From IMG/VR virus record IMGVR_UViG_3300048819_000142, positions 32,001 to 96,000 of that record: DNA of 64,000 bases. One strand, given 5' to 3'. The notes beneath the pieces are model-generated. The model was not told the origin of the DNA. It saw nothing but the letters and a program-made list of their open reading frames with translations, and made no database searches. Made by a program: the position numbers and the translations under genes. Below, in pieces: positions 42,267 through 46,997 of this stretch. Source of the stretch: a virus (Duplodnaviria > Caudoviricetes). Every line of letters starts with the position of its first letter. The first letter of the stretch is position 1.

Positions 42267-43385
42267 TTACTTCGTCGAGATGACCTCGGCGAGCTGAACC
42301 GCCCTCTTGAGGGCAGAAGTCTTGGTTGCTGCTTTCGGACCAAACCACGCGCTGTATATGGCGTTGTCGCGGTCGCGACCGGCGAGGTGGTCCGCATAAT
42401 ACGTTGTCGCGTTGAAGGCTCCCCAAAGAGTCCCCCTGGCCGATTCCATCTCAGCACCGGGCTGGCGCTCGATTGCCTTGAACACGTCGTAAGCCGTCCG
42501 CTTGAATTGGTCGGGATTTATGCGGGGCGATGTGGGATCGACGATGAGCTTGGCTTGGTCCGCCTCACTCTTCTTCGCATAACCTTTTCCGAATGCCTCA
42601 ATCATCATTTCCGGTTGAAACACGTCTGCTACGTACCGGATGACAACGTCATCGTCGATGACAGTCTTTGCCAGCTTGTTTGCCGTTGACTCGAATCCCT
42701 CGAAAAGCTCGCTCGCGATACCGAGGGATATCTGTGCCTGCTGAGCAGTTTCTCCGTCAAACGCCCGAATGTGCGGCATGCGAAAGCCCTTACCGTGCGA
42801 GGATTCGTTCATCGCCATCGTGAATGTGTTCATGCACACAACGCGAATGGTGACGAACTTAATGACGAACGACTTTCCCCAAATATGCGGAGAGCTCAAC
42901 AACAGATAGCCATGCACTTCGTCCCCGCCGGGGAGGACGAACGACTTCTTGAGCTTTGCGAGAACCCATACCTGTTTCCCATCCTGGAGCGACCCAGCTG
43001 TCTCCATGCGCATGTGTCCTGCGTCGGTGAATTTCTTGAAGAAGTTGAAGGCTTGCGCGTTCTGTATAGGAATGTAGTCCTTACCAGCAGGACCAAGTAT
43101 CTTGTTGTCCGAGTCGCGAACAAGCGCGAAATAATCCGACACAGACAGGGAGGTTCCTCCCATATCAAGGTAACCCTTGAAGTCTTTCGCGTCGAAGCCT
43201 TCGATCGAGAGGGACGAGGTTGCGGGGGTGAACAGGGGGCGTTTGCTGACGGTCCAATTAAGTTCCGCTGCAACAAGCATTTCTTCGGGAGTGGCGTCGT
43301 GGTCGATGGGATTTCCCAGTCCGTGCCAGGGGACGCTTGCTTGTCCCTCGTGGCGGTACGCCATTGTTTCGACTTCATGCGGCAT
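42267..43385 (-). CDS. DUF932-family protein
   Basis: HEVETM..PWHGLG, ETAGSL..GK.VW.LA, IRVVC.NT, GTLWGAFNA.T.Y.DH. Confidence 0.88.
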   Translation of the reverse strand: MPHEVETMAYRHEGQASVPWHGLGNPIDHDATPEEMLVAAELNWTVSKRPLFTPATSSLSIEGFDAKDFKGYLDMGGTSLSVSDYFALVRDSDNKILGPAGKDYIPIQNAQAFNFFKKFTDAGHMRMETAGSLQDGKQVWVLAKLKKSFVLPGGDEVHGYLLLSSPHIWGKSFVIKFVTIRVVCMNTFTMAMNESSHGKGFRMPHIRAFDGETAQQAQISLGIASELFEGFESTANKLAKTVIDDDVVIRYVADVFQPEMMIEAFGKGYAKKSEADQAKLIVDPTSPRINPDQFKRTAYDVFKAIERQPGAEMESARGTLWGAFNATTYYADHLAGRDRDNAIYSAWFGPKAATKTSALKRAVQLAEVISTK

Positions 43386-43508: not shown

Positions 43509-43805
43509 CTACTTGAGGGTCTCTTCCAGCTCGGCGATCTCGCGATCCAGGTCCTGGCGCTTCTCTTCCGTCGTCTTCAGGGAGCTCCTGCGAGCTTTTG
43601 CTTCGGACAGCCGACGAGCCCGCTCATCGCGAACGCGAGCAGCGATCTCTCGATCCAGATCATTCACTGCGTTATTCAGCCAGTCGGGCTTATCGAGCTT
43701 CTGAGCTTCGTACTCGGCAAAAATAGCCCGAGCATTGGCTCTCAATTCGATTAGCTCCTCCACGCTGAACTTCGCCACGGTGAGTGTTTTGAGTTTCTCG
43801 ATCAT
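43509..43805 (-). CDS. Coiled-coil protein downstream of the TROVE gene
   Basis: GAAAGGAG RBS before ATG at 43805; R/E/K-rich heptads. Confidence 0.7.
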   Translation of the reverse strand: MIEKLKTLTVAKFSVEELIELRANARAIFAEYEAQKLDKPDWLNNAVNDLDREIAARVRDERARRLSEAKARRSSLKTTEEKRQDLDREIAELEETLK

Positions 43806-43878
43806 GTTCTTTCTCCTTTCCGTGGTGCGTTCCACCACATATTTCCCTTCAGGCGTCCTTCGCGTTGCACGCTTAGTT

Positions 43879-45357
43879 TCAGGCATGGGCGAGGTCCCTT
43901 GTTTCAAGCTTAAGGACGTCGGCCAAGGACAGCAGAGGCTGCTCCATGATCTCGTCCACGAGGCTGTACCGATTGGTCCTCATGGTCTCAACCATGTTGG
44001 GCAGCGAGTAGTAGTCAGCGGCGCTGGTGATCGGGAATTCATGCAGTTCCAGTCCCTCGCCGCTGCAATTGCTTGTGAGCACGTTCCGATCTCCGGGAAC
44101 GTGGTAGAAGTACACAGGAACCTGACGATCAAGCATCTTCGTCAATTCCTTGTATGCTGTTGCGAATGCCGGCGGGTGGTTCTCGCCCCCGTCAGAAACG
44201 ATTGCGATACCGTCCACCGCGAACTTTCGCTCAACAATGTATCGGCACCCGACACCGATAGACGTGCTGCCATTCGCCACCATTCTTGCTGTGATCTTCT
44301 GCACATCTTCAAGGGTCTTCCCAGTAACGTCAAAGTATGTGGGTGACGTATTGAAGAATACCAGGTGAACCCTTCCTTTTGCTACTCGGGCAAGCAGCGC
44401 AGAGAGCGACTTCGCTACTTCCATGGAAACTTGCATGGAGGACGAAGCATCAGCCAGGACCAACCAGTCACCTTCAAGGGAGGTCTTGTCGAGCTTCTTT
44501 TCCTGCACAGCTCGAACCTTCTCCTTGAACTCGTCGTCGTCCAAAGCGTCTGCTGCCTGCGACAGTTTCATCACGTTCGATGTCCCAGTCGCGACTCGGC
44601 CAAGCGCTTTTTCGAGAGCGCCTCGAAGTGTTGGATCCTTGCGAATCCCAAGCTTCTCGAGCATCTTCATGTGTGAGGTAAGCTCAGCGGGAGTCATGCG
44701 GTCGATCATAGCTGCCAGGATGTTCTTGTCCTGGAGCTTTTTCCCAAGTGCGGGGGCAGCAATGAGGAACGGAATCTTCTTTGTGAGGACCGCTCCAGCT
44801 GCTTCAAGCCCGTCCATGATACTCAAGTTGGCAATGGTGTCGAACACCGACCCTTTCGGTCGCCCTCCCTCGAATAAGACAGACTTGTTGAATTCGGCCG
44901 GCTTCACGCGGCAGAATGCATACAGTTCGTGCATGGTTCGCCTGTGCTGCACGATGGTCCTTGTCCACTTGCCTGGATTTGCCTCCATCGAGTGCAGGTA
45001 TGCCTTTACCAGCTTAGGAACAGCTTGGCGACGACCTGCCATTGATTGGGTCTTGGCGAACCGGACTCCACGCAACAGGTCCCTCGGGGAGAGCAATGCC
45101 AGGTGCGCCTTGGCATTGTCCATCAAGACAGGATCGCCGTGTTCGCGGGAGATCATGCTCTCGAGGGAGATCAACGGTAGAGCAACCTTGGCGTCCCTGA
45201 TCTGGCCCTTGCGTGCATTCCAAGCTACAAGGTGTGCGAAGAATTCGGGATCTTCCCGAGCGGCTTGCCGACCGAGCGGCAAATATTCCTCAAGTTTACC
45301 GTGCGGCGATTTTGCCAGTTCTGCAAACACACTCTGCCTCGTCAGTCCCTGTTCCAT
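43879..45357 (-). CDS. Ro60/Rsr-like TROVE-domain protein with C-terminal vWA domain
   Basis: Helical N-terminal region (DPEFFAHL..W...QIRD, MTP.EL..HMKMLEKLG); MIDAS-like DASSSM, G.TSIG, IVSDGGEN; GAGAGG RBS, ATG at 45357 (492 aa). Confidence 0.75.
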   Translation of the reverse strand: MEQGLTRQSVFAELAKSPHGKLEEYLPLGRQAAREDPEFFAHLVAWNARKGQIRDAKVALPLISLESMISREHGDPVLMDNAKAHLALLSPRDLLRGVRFAKTQSMAGRRQAVPKLVKAYLHSMEANPGKWTRTIVQHRRTMHELYAFCRVKPAEFNKSVLFEGGRPKGSVFDTIANLSIMDGLEAAGAVLTKKIPFLIAAPALGKKLQDKNILAAMIDRMTPAELTSHMKMLEKLGIRKDPTLRGALEKALGRVATGTSNVMKLSQAADALDDDEFKEKVRAVQEKKLDKTSLEGDWLVLADASSSMQVSMEVAKSLSALLARVAKGRVHLVFFNTSPTYFDVTGKTLEDVQKITARMVANGSTSIGVGCRYIVERKFAVDGIAIVSDGGENHPPAFATAYKELTKMLDRQVPVYFYHVPGDRNVLTSNCSGEGLELHEFPITSAADYYSLPNMVETMRTNRYSLVDEIMEQPLLSLADVLKLETRDLAHA

Positions 45358-45382
45358 GATCATCCTCTCTCGTAAAATAGCA

Positions 45383-45404
45383 GCGGCCTCCGTGTGGAGG
45401 CCGC
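45383..45404 (-). terminator. Hairpin between the RNA array and TROVE gene (terminator/attenuator)
   Basis: GCGGCCTCC-ACAC-GGAGGCCGC then TGCTATTTT on -. Confidence 0.55.
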
Positions 45405-45413
45405 AGAAGCAAA

Positions 45414-45475
45414 TCGCGAAGTGTCGGTTAGTGCTTTCATGCACCCAAAGCGTGTACACTAGCCAGTGTCCGCGA
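45414..45475 (-). ncRNA. Y-RNA-like module A (minimal)
   Basis: TCGCGG-ACAC-TGGCTAGTG-TACAC-[small hairpin]-CACTAACCGACAC-TT-CGCGA. Confidence 0.65.
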
Positions 45476-45493
45476 AAACGCAGAAAAAATGAA

Positions 45494-45655
45494 ACGGCCC
45501 GATGTGTCGAAGTTCTAAAATTAGCTGAGCTAATCCCCCACAGACCTCGCAAGGTCTCCCTCACGAAATCTGTGGGGGATCTTGGATTCGAACCAAGGAC
45601 CATCAGCGGTGAAGCTGAGGCTCTATCCGTGTAAGAACGCCAGTAACCGGGCCGT
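45494..45655 (-). ncRNA. Y-RNA-like module B with D-loop-permuted tRNA domain
   Basis: Shared stem encloses GGATAGAGC / TCAGC-6nt-GCTGA / T arm CTTGG-TTCGAAT-CCAAG / 12-bp loop-closed acceptor stem / TAGCTCAG. Confidence 0.75.
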
Positions 45656-45663
45656 AAAATCAA

Positions 45664-45794
45664 CGAGCGATGTGTCGGCATACGTCACCAAACGGCCCCC
45701 GATAAGTTTGAATGGCGGGGGGCCCGGGTATGAGCCGGACTCCGGGTATCACTACCCGAATGTTTCTACGTGTATGTATTCCAGTAACCGCTCG
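45664..45794 (-). ncRNA. Y-RNA-like module C with degenerate permuted tRNA domain
   Basis: Shared stem encloses GTAGAAAC / CGGGTA-GTGA-TACCCG / CCGG-CTCATAC-CCGG / GCCCCCCGCCA...GGGGGC / GTTT. Confidence 0.65.
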
Positions 45795-45879
45795 AACTTA
45801 AAAAGGGAGCTGGGCCGCCTCGTTGGCCGTGAGTTTGTTGCCTGAGCTCCCCGCATCGACAAATCTGTCGACGAAAACT

Positions 45880-46005
45880 TGTCCCCGAAATGTCTGCAAG
45901 CTGTTTCGCCTTACGGCGACGGCGGATTTGACCCGCAACCTTCTGATTAAGAGTCAGACGCTCTACAAGTGAGCTACGTGTAAGCTTACAAGTGTCCGGG
46001 GGACA
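45880..46005 (-). ncRNA. Y-RNA-like module D with tRNA-Lys(CUU)-like body lacking an acceptor stem
   Basis: TAGCTC-ACTTGTA-GAGC, TCTGA-CTCTTAA-TCAGA, AGGTT, GCGG-GTCAAAT-CCGC inside the shared stem. Confidence 0.75.
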
Positions 46006-46017
46006 CCATAATAACTT

Positions 46018-46092
46018 GATCCCGAAGAGTCGGTGTGCTATTTTTGTGCTGATAGATGGGATATCATGTAAGCACGCCAGTGTCCGGGAATC
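46018..46092 (-). ncRNA. Y-RNA-like module E (minimal)
   Basis: TCCCGG-ACAC-TGGCGTGCT-TACAT-[hairpin]-AGCACACCGACTC-TT-CGGGA. Confidence 0.65.
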
Positions 46093-46179
46093 GGAAACTT
46101 TTTCGCCGGGGGTTGCTATTGCCCGACAGCATTTCGATGTCTTGCTGAGTTGTTAAGCTCAGTTAGCTAACATATAATC

Positions 46180-46210
46180 ATTGTACAACAAGGATTGTCG
46201 GGTGTAACGG
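46180..46210 (-). promoter_or_regulatory. Promoter upstream of the RNA array/TROVE operon
   Basis: CCGT-N21-TACAAT, same motif as seven other sites. Confidence 0.6.
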
Positions 46211-46228
46211 ACAATTTTTCGGACAAAA

Positions 46229-46447
46229 TCAATTCACTGTCTCGTAGCCCGGTAGACCCGGAAGACCTGCATCCCTCAAACTTGCATGCACGTTCGCCCT
46301 AACGTATGCCAAGACCTTACGTCGTTCTACCGAATCCTCAGAAGATAAAAGCAGTATGAATTCGGGAGCGCTCATGTGTAGCTCAATAACAAGGTCATCG
46401 AGCGTAGGAAGTTCAGTTGAGATATCCACCACCTTATCAGAAGTCAT
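46229..46447 (-). CDS. Hypothetical protein
   Basis: 72-aa ORF overlapping the peptidase stop. Confidence 0.5.
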   Translation of the reverse strand: MTSDKVVDISTELPTLDDLVIELHMSAPEFILLLSSEDSVERRKVLAYVRANVHASLRDAGLPGLPGYETVN

Positions 46448-46997
46448 ACCGTTTCAGCATCTCCCTTTCGATGTCCTCCCAACTGTCGCAAAACCCCCTG
46501 ACATACAGGGGGGTGTCTTCCTTTCGAGCCTGAACATGCCATTGCCTTCGTCGAGGTTGCCACTGGTCTGTGTTGGCTGAATGAAACAGCCCTTCTTCAG
46601 CAGCAAGCATTGCTACTGGCTTGACTATGGAGCCTTCCCAAACTGCCCGACCGCCTACCTCAACAAACAAGTCAGCGGCTTCTGACCACTGGTGCCATGA
46701 TTGGCCCGGTAAATGTTCCGTTGCGGGAGGACCAAGTCCCGCATATTCCGGCTTAAACAAGGTGGCGAGGACGGGAGCCGTAGGCTTAAGTATCCGTCGC
46801 CGCTTGTCGACTTCTTCCTCAGACCTCGATCTGCACCATAGGCGAGCCTGAGACTCAGGTCCTCGAACTGTGGGTCCTACCCTAAGCTCGATTCCTCGAG
46901 GTTTTGCCCGCTCGAGCAGCCGGATCAGTTTTTGCTGGAACGCTGATTCCAACAGATCCAGACTTTTCGATTCCAACGACTTGTCCAGCAGCATCAT
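46437..46997 (-). CDS. M15-family peptidoglycan peptidase-like protein
   Basis: R...Q.RL...RS, PGQSWHQW.EAAD, WHVQ Zn-ligand pattern. Confidence 0.7.
   Translation of the reverse strand: MMLLDKSLESKSLDLLESAFQQKLIRLLERAKPRGIELRVGPTVRGPESQARLWCRSRSEEEVDKRRRILKPTAPVLATLFKPEYAGLGPPATEHLPGQSWHQWSEAADLFVEVGGRAVWEGSIVKPVAMLAAEEGLFHSANTDQWQPRRRQWHVQARKEDTPLYVRGFCDSWEDIEREMLKRYDF

What the first reader, a model, noticed from the sequence alone, without database searches (positions are those of the whole stretch)
45494..45655. Circularly permuted tRNA opened at the D-loop (module B)
Seen, in 5'->3' order on -: D-arm 3' half (GGATAGAGC), anticodon-like arm (TCAGC/GCTGA, 6-nt loop TTCACC), variable loop TGGTC, perfect T arm (CTTGG-TTCGAAT-CCAAG), acceptor 3' strand ATCCCCCACAGA, linker, acceptor 5' strand TCTGTGGGGGAT, then TA-GCTCAG (D-arm 5' half). 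The standard TAGCTCAG|..GG.TAGAGC D arm is split and the shared stem is grafted at the break. Established: in YrlA the Ro stem replaces the anticodon arm, and permuted tRNA genes are known from red algae and some archaea. Inference: a new Y-RNA topology, or a precursor that is cut and ligated into a tRNA-like circle.
Basis: partly seen in the sequence, partly recalled or inferred. Interest (0 to 1): 0.85.

Follow-up and report, generated by a model that had tools for sequence, protein, structure and literature searches.

The report
Phage Y RNA: tRNA mimic split at D-loop
This is one of five small RNA genes in front of a phage Ro60-like gene. It carries an almost complete tRNA look-alike whose order is rotated so that the shared Ro-type stem grows out of the D-loop, an arrangement not described for Y RNAs that recurs in several related phages.

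Summary
**Observation:** confirmed. On the minus strand, 45494-45655 holds, in tRNA numbering, G18-G19 to nt 72, then a 22-bp hairpin closing the acceptor stem, then nt 1-15. A long stem joins the two ends where D-loop nt 16-17 would be.

**tRNA test:** re-permuted in silico, ARAGORN calls it a tRNA with a 6-nt anticodon loop. It makes no call in native order or in 2000 shuffles.

**Context:**
- It is unit 4 of five units sharing one scaffold (conserved ACUG, UACAYG and CGACUU).
- The array lies upstream of a 489-aa gene that Pfam sees only as vWA. Its predicted fold matches Ro60/Rsr over its full length.
- The record is a 117-kb uncultured phage.

**Relatives:**
- A covariance model built only from relatives' units scores this one at 82 bits.
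- The split-D layout occurs at six further loci, one of them degenerate.
- It shows D-stem and 15-48 covariation and keeps U8, A14, G18G19 and A21.

**Verdict:** most likely a YrlA-like Y RNA of a new topology (a new variant of a known kind). The "cut and ligated into a circle" idea is not supported: there is no BHB motif, no phage RtcB, the loop has 6 nt, and the scaffold is conserved. Expression, Ro binding and function are untested.

The scan had already noted this same stretch in another reading of this genome.

The parts
45494..45655 (-). Whole unit 4 ('module B'): scaffold stem plus a tRNA-like module permuted at the D-loop
   Evidence: R2, built from relatives only, matches 45490-45657 at 81.9 bits.
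45646..45655 (-). Outer scaffold stem, 5' strand; pairs with 45494-45503
   Evidence: Folds. Helix 1 covaries in 6 of 7 pairs.
45641..45644 (-). Conserved scaffold motif ACUG in an internal loop or short helix
   Evidence: Columns are 84-98% conserved over 125 units.
45628..45638 (-). Upper scaffold stem 5' strand (GUUCU), then the near-invariant UACAYG motif. Its last G doubles as G18.
   Evidence: (97-99% conserved). The motif corresponds to the conserved YUAY of YrlA (PMC4201824).
45620..45628 (-). D-arm 3' part: G18 G19 A U A21, then the stem half GAGC (nt 22-25)
   Evidence: It pairs with 45527-45530, and 20 of 22 cells pair in register across the 7 units.
45603..45618 (-). Anticodon-like arm: 5-bp stem, 6-nt loop
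   Evidence: Helix 4 covaries in 5 of 5 pairs.
45598..45602 (-). Variable loop, 5 nt. Its last base, C48, can form the Levitt pair with G15.
   Evidence: The 15-48 pair is G-C here and A-U in L240, L019 and L060 (sequences).
45581..45597 (-). T arm: 5 bp, consensus 7-nt T loop
   Evidence: helix 5 is 100% paired.
45533..45580 (-). Closed acceptor stem: 7 bp of tRNA acceptor continued into a 22-bp hairpin with a 4-nt loop
   Evidence: Helix 6 is 100% paired. The long extension is shared with L001.
45525..45532 (-). U8 A9, D-stem 5' half GCUC (nt 10-13), A14 G15
45494..45516 (-). Scaffold 3' strand: AGAAC, the conserved CGAC(A/U) motif, and the outer-stem 3' strand
45483..45493 (-). U-rich tail after the unit
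   Evidence: Every unit in the array is followed by a short U-rich spacer.
43879..45348 (-). Ro60/TROVE-fold plus vWA protein gene (489 aa), the presumed protein partner
   Evidence: AF2 pLDDT 86.5. Foldseek top hits are phage phiLo Ro60, Xenopus Ro, D. radiodurans Rsr and human Ro60, E 1e-9 to 1e-7 over the full length. Pfam finds only VWA_CoxE; phrog_850 is named 'RNA-binding protein'.
45412..46098 (-). The whole five-unit array: Y1 46098-46013, Y2 46009-45877, Y3 45798-45658, Y4 (this unit), Y5 45480-45412
   Evidence: L001 has a collinear array.
46180..46208 (-). Promoter-like site upstream of the array
   Evidence: This is a consensus match only.
45383..45404 (-). Terminator-like hairpin with a U tail, between the array and the Ro60-like gene
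   Evidence: L001 has an equivalent hairpin.

Best explanation
Unit 4 is a Y RNA of the YrlA kind, made by a 117-kb uncultured phage.

**Proposed structure**
- Its 5' and 3' ends pair into a scaffold stem with the motifs ACUG, UACAYG and CGACUU. All five units of the array, and 125 units in related phages, share this stem. It is the presumed binding site of the Ro60-like ring protein encoded just downstream.
- The other end of the RNA is a tRNA body in rotated order: nt 18-72, a hairpin that closes the acceptor stem, then nt 1-15.
- The two halves of the D stem (GAGC and GCUC) pair across the junction. The module can then fold into the tRNA L-shape, using U8-A14, G15-C48 and G18G19 with the T loop.
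- The scaffold stem projects from the D-loop where nt 16-17 would be.
- The acceptor end is blocked and the anticodon loop has 6 nt, so the RNA is a tRNA mimic, not a decoder.

**Proposed function**
The module would tether or present a tRNA-binding host or phage factor to Ro60. Compared with canonical YrlA it leaves the anticodon arm free and puts Ro60 near the elbow.

**What is shown and what is inferred**
- Shown: the sequence anatomy, fold stability, the Ro60 fold of the neighbouring protein, family-wide scaffold conservation, recurrence of the split-D layout, and covariation.
- Inferred: transcription and processing, Ro60 binding, the L-shaped fold, and the partner and purpose.
For: 1. **Anatomy in exact tRNA numbering.**
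2. **ARAGORN after re-permutation.** It calls a tRNA in 8 of 8 constructs of this unit and in 13 of 14 constructs from the seven split-D units. It calls none of 8 native sequences and 0 of 2000 shuffles.
3. **Fold energies.** The fold z-score is -7.3. The cloverleaf-type fold with the D stem lies 1.3 kcal/mol above the minimum.
4. **The neighbouring protein.** It has a Ro60 fold over its full length.
5. **The scaffold.** The motifs are 84-99% conserved over 125 units.
6. **Link to YrlA.** Rfam YrlA RF02553 hits canonical-order units of relatives end to end at 32-49 bits, E 4e-8 to 4e-3.
7. **Independent model.** R2, built from five relatives' split-D units only, scores this unit at 81.9 bits, E 3e-16, with all four D-stem pairs standard. 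The best hit of another topology scores 61 bits.
8. **Covariation over the 7 units.**
   - 96% of cells pair, 27 of 36 pairs change on both sides, and 0 of 500 shuffles reach this.
   - D stem: 10-25 is G-C in 6. 11-24 is C-G in 3 and U-A in 3. 12-23 is U-A in 4, C-G in 1 and A-U in 1.
   - 20 of 22 D-stem cells pair in register, against 2-11 when slid.
   - The Levitt pair 15-48 switches between G-C and A-U.
   - G18G19 is kept in all seven units, U8 and A14 in 6 of 7, and A21 in the six units with a D stem (sequences).
9. **Spread on the protein tree.** The carriers lie in at least three separate places on the Ro60-like tree.
10. **Literature.** YrlA is described as a permuted tRNA with a closed acceptor stem that binds Rsr (PMC4201824; bioRxiv 10.1101/312249). 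A phage Ro60 binds upstream Y-like RNAs (PMC12135203).
Against: - There are no expression data and no binding data.
- The closest relative (L001, 62% protein identity) keeps the T arm, acceptor hairpin and anticodon-like arm but has lost the G-C D-stem halves. The D stem is therefore dispensable in at least one lineage.
- In this unit a local hairpin around GCUC competes with the D stem, which has an ensemble probability of about 0.05.
- The YrlA 5' motif GNCGAA is absent, and Rfam YrlA finds nothing in the window even at E 10.
- The protein is too diverged for the Pfam TROVE model, so Ro-type RNA binding rests on fold similarity alone.
- Only seven split-D units are known, and the alignment used for counting was fitted to the structure.
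Confidence: 0.7

Rival explanations
1. Evolutionary relic. Recombination between neighbouring array units produced a chimera: one unit in standard order (stem, D, anticodon arm, T) and one in YrlA order (T, acceptor hairpin, D, stem). The two D halves are left-over sequence that does not pair. The working parts are only the scaffold, the T arm and the hairpins.
For: - L001's orthologous unit has lost both G-C-rich D halves while the rest stays 82% identical.
- The D stem is absent from the minimum-free-energy fold, and a local hairpin competes with it.
- The window's Y2 has the same 5' junction with a full D arm, so a deletion origin is easy to picture.
Against: - Six of seven split-D units keep at least 3 in-register D-stem pairs, with compensatory changes at 11-24 and 12-23.
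- U8, A14, A21, G18G19 and a covarying 15-48 pair are also kept.
- The competing local hairpin is not conserved in L010, L019, L032 or L060.
Confidence: 0.13
2. Permuted pre-tRNA. The scaffold is removed and the D-loop ends are ligated, through a circle or otherwise, and the acceptor hairpin is opened. Alternatively RNase P plus 3' trimming opens the acceptor only, giving a two-piece CCA-ended tRNA-like RNA that could be charged.
For: - Algal permuted tRNA genes include a type with the junction in the D-loop at 20/21 (PMC3978253).
- M. smegmatis YrlA is cut by RNase P and receives CCA (PMC4201824).
- In L010 and L240 the acceptor 3' strand is followed directly by ACCA. L010, L019, L032 and L060 have 7-nt YU-NNN-AA anticodon loops.
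Against: - Here the loop has 6 nt, the acceptor helix runs on for 22 bp, and ACAG rather than ACCA follows nt 72.
- The junction has no bulge-helix-bulge (fold).
- The 117-kb phage record has no RtcB.
- The scaffold that would be thrown away is the best-conserved part of 125 units and sits next to a Ro60-like gene.
Confidence: 0.07
3. Not a gene product at all: a chance or degenerate tRNA fragment pair, or a DNA-level element such as an attachment site or recombination hot spot made of tRNA pieces.
For: Phage genomes carry many tRNA genes and fragments. A real phage tRNA shares the same T arm and acceptor sequence (L065).
Against: - The RNA-level covariation in six helices and the conserved scaffold argue against it.
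- So do the constant position upstream of the Ro60-like gene on the same strand and the z-score of -7.3.
Confidence: 0.03

Closest known systems
YrlA, the tRNA-like Y RNA of bacterial and phage Ro60 (Rsr) loci (Rfam RF02553; Chen et al. 2014, PMC4201824; structure in bioRxiv 10.1101/312249)
   Same: - It is encoded next to a Ro60-type gene.
- The ends pair into a stem, and the module is a permuted tRNA with a closed acceptor stem.
- It has a consensus T loop, the D-loop GG, U8-A14 and the 15-48 pair.
- The conserved YUAY-type motif follows the 5' stem strand.
- Canonical-order units in this phage family hit RF02553.
   Different: - The stem leaves from the D-loop (between nt 15 and 18), not from the anticodon-stem position.
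- The D arm is split into two halves about 95 nt apart.
- A complete anticodon-like hairpin is present.
- The GNCGAA motif is absent; the scaffold motifs are ACUG, UACAYG and CGACUU.
- RF02553 finds nothing in the window.
D. radiodurans Yrn1, as modelled by Chen et al. 2014 (PMC4201824)
   Same: The order along the RNA is D-like sequence, then an 'anticodon arm' with a 5-bp stem and a 6-nt loop, then the T arm. This is the same order and the same odd loop size as at 45628-45581.
   Different: According to the paper, Yrn1 has no full D arm and no variable arm. The paper also says that the stem-loop between its T and D arms sits at the anticodon-arm position rather than the acceptor position. 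The unit here has a variable loop, a closed acceptor hairpin and a D-stem 5' half. I had no Yrn1 sequence, so no alignment was made.
Circularly permuted tRNA genes of red and green algae and Thermofilum; type I has its junction at 20/21 in the D-loop (PMC3978253)
   Same: The 3' part of the tRNA lies upstream of the 5' part, an intervening sequence closes the acceptor stem, and the break is in the D-loop.
   Different: Those are true tRNA precursors with a bulge-helix-bulge at the junction. They are cut by the splicing endonuclease, circularised and then opened. Here there is no such motif, the host is bacterial, the loop has 6 nt, and the junction stem is a conserved protein-binding-type scaffold.
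Yrl1 and Yrl2 of Thermus phage phiLo, bound by phage Ro60 (PMC12135203)
   Same: Phage-encoded Y-like RNAs lie directly upstream of a phage Ro60 gene. The protein here matches the phiLo Ro60 structure best.
   Different: The phiLo RNAs are described as stem-bulge-stem RNAs with a CGAA motif, and that paper does not mention a tRNA-like module. Here there are five units, at least three with tRNA-derived modules.

Membership tests
YrlA (Rfam RF02553 / Chen 2014) | Encoded next to a Ro60/Rsr (TROVE) gene | tested here: met
   The 489-aa ORF starts 146 nt downstream of the unit (about 64 nt past the end of the array). Its predicted fold matches Ro60 structures over the full length. The Pfam TROVE model itself does not fire.
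YrlA (Rfam RF02553 / Chen 2014) | Scores at or above the Rfam gathering score (69 bits) | tested here: not met
   RF02553 has no match in 44800-46800 even at E 10. Canonical-order units of relatives reach 32-49 bits.
YrlA (Rfam RF02553 / Chen 2014) | GNCGAAN0-1G motif near the 5' end | tested here: not met
   The 5' strand reads ..GGUUACUGG..; no such motif is present.
YrlA (Rfam RF02553 / Chen 2014) | Order V, T arm, closed acceptor stem, intact D arm; ends in the stem that stands for the anticodon stem | tested here: not met
   T arm and closed acceptor are present. The D arm is split, and the ends leave from the D-loop.
YrlA (Rfam RF02553 / Chen 2014) | tRNA tertiary-contact nucleotides conserved (T loop, D-loop GG, U8/A14, 15-48) | tested here: met
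   All are present here. They are conserved or covarying in the split-D units.
YrlA (Rfam RF02553 / Chen 2014) | Bound by Ro60/Rsr; modified by TruB/Dus | not testable with these tools
   Needs immunoprecipitation and modification mapping.
Circularly permuted tRNA gene (Soma 2007 type I) | 3' half upstream of 5' half; re-permutation gives a tRNA | tested here: met
   ARAGORN calls a tRNA in all re-permuted constructs.
Circularly permuted tRNA gene (Soma 2007 type I) | Bulge-helix-bulge motif at the junction of the termini | tested here: not met
   The junction is a 10 x 10 nt internal loop between the D stem and a 5-bp helix.
Circularly permuted tRNA gene (Soma 2007 type I) | Decoding-competent 7-nt anticodon loop | tested here: not met
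   The loop has 6 nt, and ARAGORN reports 'tRNA-???'. Four relatives do have 7-nt loops.
Circularly permuted tRNA gene (Soma 2007 type I) | Ligase for circularisation available | tested here: inconclusive
   There is no RtcB in the phage record. The host is unknown, and the splicing endonuclease was not searched for.
tRNA (Rfam RF00005) | Matches the tRNA model in native order | tested here: not met
   This unit has no RF00005 match at E 10. The only tRNA hit in the window is unit Y2 at 45919-45979.

The most novel reading that the evidence does not exclude
This unannotated phage Ro60 family uses one protein-binding scaffold as a universal handle and grafts tRNA bodies onto it at every possible opening. 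The openings seen are the acceptor end, position 26 or the anticodon stem, the variable region, and (here) the D-loop. Each unit would then present a different face of a tRNA. The D-loop graft leaves the anticodon arm exposed while Ro60 sits at the elbow. That would suit a Ro60-tethered decoy or adaptor for host enzymes that attack or read the anticodon arm, for example anticodon nucleases used in anti-phage defence.
Probability: 0.2. Interest if true: 0.85.

Novelty: new variant of a known kind. Interest (0 to 1): 0.62.

Why it matters
- **A different attachment point.** In the YrlA class, whose tRNA-like domain has been solved, the Ro-binding stem stands in for the anticodon stem. This has shaped the idea that the unknown effector reads the elbow. 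Chen et al. model D. radiodurans Yrn1 in a different orientation. A conserved class in which the stem leaves from the D-loop and the anticodon arm is intact shows that the attachment point is not fixed, which points to effectors that read other faces of tRNA.
- **The dimeric-tRNA origin model.** The finding also bears on the published dimeric-tRNA origin model for Y RNAs: the same scheme with different truncation points yields this layout.
- **An unrecognised phage Ro60 family.** More than 800 proteins, all labelled hypothetical, form a phage Ro60 family with arrays of up to several modular Y RNAs. This gives many natural variants for working out what tRNA-like Y RNAs do.

Tried and rejected
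The contigs of the closest protein relatives (P0002, P0003, P0006, P0007; 58-67% identity) could not be fetched. This is the main gap.
- **A looser viral pattern** was swamped by ordinary tRNAs.
- **The T-arm/acceptor pattern** found only L001's contig and a real phage tRNA, L065.
- **GenBank phages** gave no DNA match. The only protein match was at 26% identity.
- **The genome-contig scan** gave six MAG loci and no further split-D unit.
- **nhmmer with the single sequence** found only L001; the covariance models were needed.
- **Weak Rfam matches** MIR869, mir-3617 and SNORD41 are chance matches to hairpins.
- **Considered and rejected:** a mature tRNA gene (native order fails), a tmRNA piece (ARAGORN found none), and a terminator-only hairpin (there is too much conserved internal structure).
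- **The careful tree search** did not finish, so the quick tree was used.

Full report
**1. What is in the sequence.**

Read on the minus strand, 45655-45494 is laid out as follows:
- a 10-nt strand that pairs with the last 10 nt of the unit
- the motif ACUG
- a 5-nt strand GUUCU that pairs with AGAAC near the 3' end
- UACACG
- a tRNA in exact standard numbering from G18 onward: G18 G19 A U A21, GAGC (22-25), C26, a 5-bp arm with a 6-nt loop, a 5-nt variable loop ending in C48, a perfect T arm with a consensus loop, and the acceptor 3' strand
- the acceptor helix, which runs on without a break to 22 bp and a 4-nt loop, then returns as the acceptor 5' strand
- U8 A9, GCUC (10-13), A14 G15, an 8-nt linker, and the 3' scaffold strand with CGACAC
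- a U-rich tail

Only D-loop nt 16-17 are missing, and the scaffold stem stands in their place.

**2. Is it more than chance?**
- RNAfold gives -82.4 kcal/mol, against -51.2 ± 4.3 for shuffles (z = -7.3).
- ARAGORN finds no tRNA in the window. It calls a tRNA in all eight re-permuted versions, with 0-3 filler bases and a full or 7-bp acceptor. The only oddity is a 6-nt anticodon loop.
- None of 2000 shuffles of the re-permuted sequence is called.
- The cloverleaf-type fold with GAGC/GCUC paired is nested, not a pseudoknot. It lies 1.3 kcal/mol above the minimum. In the ensemble it is a minor state, because the 13-nt palindrome around GCUC can form a small local hairpin.

**3. Context.**
- The window is part of a 116,843-bp IMG/VR virus record rated complete.
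- The unit is the fourth of five on the same strand: Y1 46098-46013, Y2 46009-45877, Y3 45798-45658, Y4 (this unit) and Y5 45480-45412.
- All five share the scaffold, and short U-rich spacers separate them.
- A promoter-like site (46208-46180) precedes the array, and a terminator-like hairpin (45404-45383) follows it.
- Y2 holds the only Rfam tRNA hit of the window. It is a tRNA-like body in standard order, attached through a shortened acceptor stem.
- About 35 nt after the terminator-like hairpin a 489-aa ORF begins (43879-45348).
  - Pfam sees only a weak vWA domain. PHROGs gives 'RNA-binding protein'. A sequence search of the PDB finds nothing.
  - An AlphaFold model from 35 homologues (pLDDT 86.5) matches Ro60 proteins over the full length. 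Hits are Thermus phage phiLo Ro60, Xenopus Ro, D. radiodurans Rsr and human Ro60, at E 1e-9 to 1e-7 and TM 0.54-0.66. Isolated vWA domains come far behind.
- The protein belongs to a family of more than 800 database proteins of about 490 aa. Every one that carries a source name is labelled hypothetical.

**4. Relatives.**

Two scans of IMG/VR gave about 75 loci with this gene. Nearly all have arrays of tRNA-like units upstream on the same strand.

A covariance search finds 125 units at E ≤ 0.001. Their alignment gives a scaffold with three parts:
- a variable 7-bp outer stem
- A-C-U-G, 84-98% conserved
- a variable upper stem that ends in U-A-C-A-Y-G (83-99%) on the 5' side and C-G-A-C-U-U (69-96%) on the 3' side

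The modules on this scaffold come in several circular orders:
- standard tRNA order, joined at the acceptor end (window Y2, L021:1724)
- the published YrlA order of T arm, closed acceptor, D arm (L041:938, L026:2059)
- the same with an intact anticodon-type hairpin in front, that is, opened at position 26 (L025:2051, L013:890)
- T arm, closed acceptor, D arm, anticodon arm, that is, opened in the variable region (L019:2317, L028:2606, L063:49)
- the split-D order of the present unit

Rfam's YrlA model matches the YrlA-order units end to end at 32-49 bits (E 4e-8 to 4e-3, below the gathering score of 69). This ties the family to YrlA. The same model finds nothing in the window.

**5. The split-D class.**

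A first model built from the window and L001 (R1) picked out L010:117-258, L032:2181-2329, L019:2631-2776 (identical in L064) and L060:2677-2833. It later found L240:3127-3280.

I then built R2 from those five relatives alone.
- R2 scores the window's unit at 81.9 bits, E 3e-16. This is the best hit outside its training set, it is full length, and all four D-stem pairs are standard.
- L001 follows at 64.8 bits with the D stem broken.
- The best unit of any other topology scores 61 bits.

Counting pairs on the seven units:
- 96% of cells pair, 27 of 36 pairs change on both sides, and no shuffle of 500 reaches this.
- Slid registers give 29-49% pairing.
- In the D stem, 10-25 is G-C in six units. 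11-24 is C-G in three and U-A in three. 12-23 is U-A in four, C-G in one and A-U in one. 13-22 is a standard pair only here and in L240, as in many real tRNAs with 3-bp D stems.
- In register, 20 of 22 D-stem cells pair, against 2-11 when the partner is slid by 1-3 columns.

The stem's position is fixed by its neighbours: one base before the anticodon-type stem, and two bases after the 7-bp acceptor strand. Alignment freedom is therefore small.

The tertiary-contact bases are kept (sequences):
- U8 in 6 of 7 units, A14 in 6 of 7, G18G19 in 7 of 7, and A21 in the six units with a D stem
- 15-48 is G-C here and A-U in L240, L019 and L060

After re-permutation, ARAGORN of 14 constructs from the seven units:
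- Four have ordinary 7-nt loops: GAA in L010 and L019, ACU in L032, and GAU with a long variable arm in L060.
- Three have off-size loops: 6 nt here and in L001, and 8 nt in L240.

On a quick tree of the Ro60-like proteins the carriers lie in at least three separate places. The class is therefore either old or exchanged between phages, and the units are reasonably independent witnesses.

**6. What weakens the case.**
- The nearest relative, L001, keeps the scaffold, the 6-nt-loop arm, the T arm and the long acceptor hairpin at 82% identity. Its D halves have turned A/U-rich, and it lacks seven bases around GCUC. At most two pairs remain.
- The D stem is therefore not indispensable, and in this unit it competes with a local hairpin.
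- That hairpin is not conserved in L010, L019, L032 or L060, whereas the D stem is. For that reason I favour the paired model.
- I have no transcript, binding or probing data.

**7. Mechanism.**

The best-supported reading is a Y RNA. The scaffold binds the Ro60-like ring, and the tRNA-like module is displayed as a handle for a tRNA-binding factor. The supporting precedents are:
- YrlA is modified by TruB and DusA, its crystal structure is a close tRNA mimic with a closed acceptor stem, and its authors expect an elbow-reading effector (PMC4201824; bioRxiv 10.1101/312249).
- Phage phiLo Ro60 binds two upstream Y-like RNAs and, together with them, host PNPase (PMC12135203).

What is new here is the geometry. 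The scaffold leaves from the variable part of the D-loop, so Ro60 would sit beside the elbow. The anticodon-type arm is free, and the acceptor end is sealed by a 22-bp helix.

That nt 16-17 can accommodate a helix is my inference from general tRNA structure, where these bases point outward and the D-loop varies in length. It was not tested here.

The published dimeric-tRNA origin model for YrlA (bioRxiv 10.1101/312249, citing Sim and Wolin 2018) also explains this layout. The first tRNA copy is kept from its D-loop onward, and the second is cut off in its D-loop.

**8. The circle idea.**

Algal permuted tRNA genes do include a D-loop type with the junction at 20/21. They depend on a bulge-helix-bulge at the junction and on the splicing endonuclease (PMC3978253). 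Four points argue against this route here:
- The junction here is a 10 x 10 nt internal loop.
- The phage has no RtcB.
- The loop has 6 nt.
- The part that would be removed is the conserved scaffold.

A milder form of processing cannot be excluded for some relatives: opening of the acceptor loop by RNase P and 3' trimming, as in M. smegmatis YrlA. L010 and L240 have ACCA directly after the acceptor 3' strand. This unit has ACAG and a continuous long helix.

**9. Verdict.**

This is a new variant of a known kind, the tRNA-like Y RNA. It lies in a large, unannotated phage Ro60 family whose arrays sample several permutations of the tRNA body. The function is unknown, and a decoy or adaptor role is a hypothesis only.

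Noticed in passing
window 45658-45798 (-): Unit Y3 also looks like a split-D module. AAAC lies before an 8-bp arm capped by a GNRA tetraloop, and GUUU lies after a G/C acceptor hairpin. GCCCCCC-G-CCA follows a 4-bp arm with a non-consensus 7-nt loop, and the GG sits on the 3' side. R2 scores it at 43 bits. If this holds, the window has two D-loop-grafted units in tandem.
   Followed up: partly
window 43879-45348 (-): The Ro60-fold protein is invisible to the Pfam TROVE model and to a sequence search of the PDB. Its family of more than 800 proteins of about 490 aa is annotated only as hypothetical.
   Followed up: yes
L019:2317-2500, L028:2606-2757, L063:49-214: These units have the order T arm, closed acceptor, D arm, complete anticodon arm (7-nt loop), then the 3' scaffold. 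That is a tRNA body opened in the variable region, another order not described for YrlA.
   Followed up: partly
L025:2051-2194, L013:890-1035, L045:2744-2866: These units have an intact anticodon-type hairpin, variable loop, T arm, closed acceptor and an intact D arm. They are opened at position 26, between the D arm and the anticodon arm.
   Followed up: partly
L223:2627-2764: In this variant the whole D-loop, including GG, stays on the 3' side with GCA, and only UGC (23-25) sits on the 5' side. The break is therefore near 21/22 rather than 15/18.
   Followed up: no
L010:117-258 and L240:3127-3280: In these split-D units ACCA directly follows the acceptor 3' strand inside the closing loop. 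This suggests possible RNase P and 3'-end processing to a CCA-ended, two-piece RNA.
   Followed up: no
window 46013-46098 (-) versus L001:2414-2551: Window unit Y1 has the same scaffold as L001's first unit. It lacks the standard-order tRNA-like insert that L001 carries and has about 30 nt of unrelated sequence instead. Units evidently gain and lose cargo.
   Followed up: no
window 45533-45580 and L001:2762-2807: The acceptor hairpin is extended to about 22 bp only in the window and L001, with compensatory changes between the two. It is long enough to be an RNase III-type substrate.
   Followed up: no
window 42267-43385 (-) and 43509-43907 (-): A 132-aa ORF with no family and a DUF932 / phrog_1221 protein lie downstream of the Ro60-like gene. 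Whether they are linked to it in relatives was not examined.
   Followed up: no
L250-L255: Relatives of the Ro60-like gene sit on MAG contigs labelled Terrimicrobiaceae, Acidobacteriaceae, candidate division WWE3 and Clostridia. These are probably binned phage contigs, and they give only weak hints about the host.
   Followed up: no
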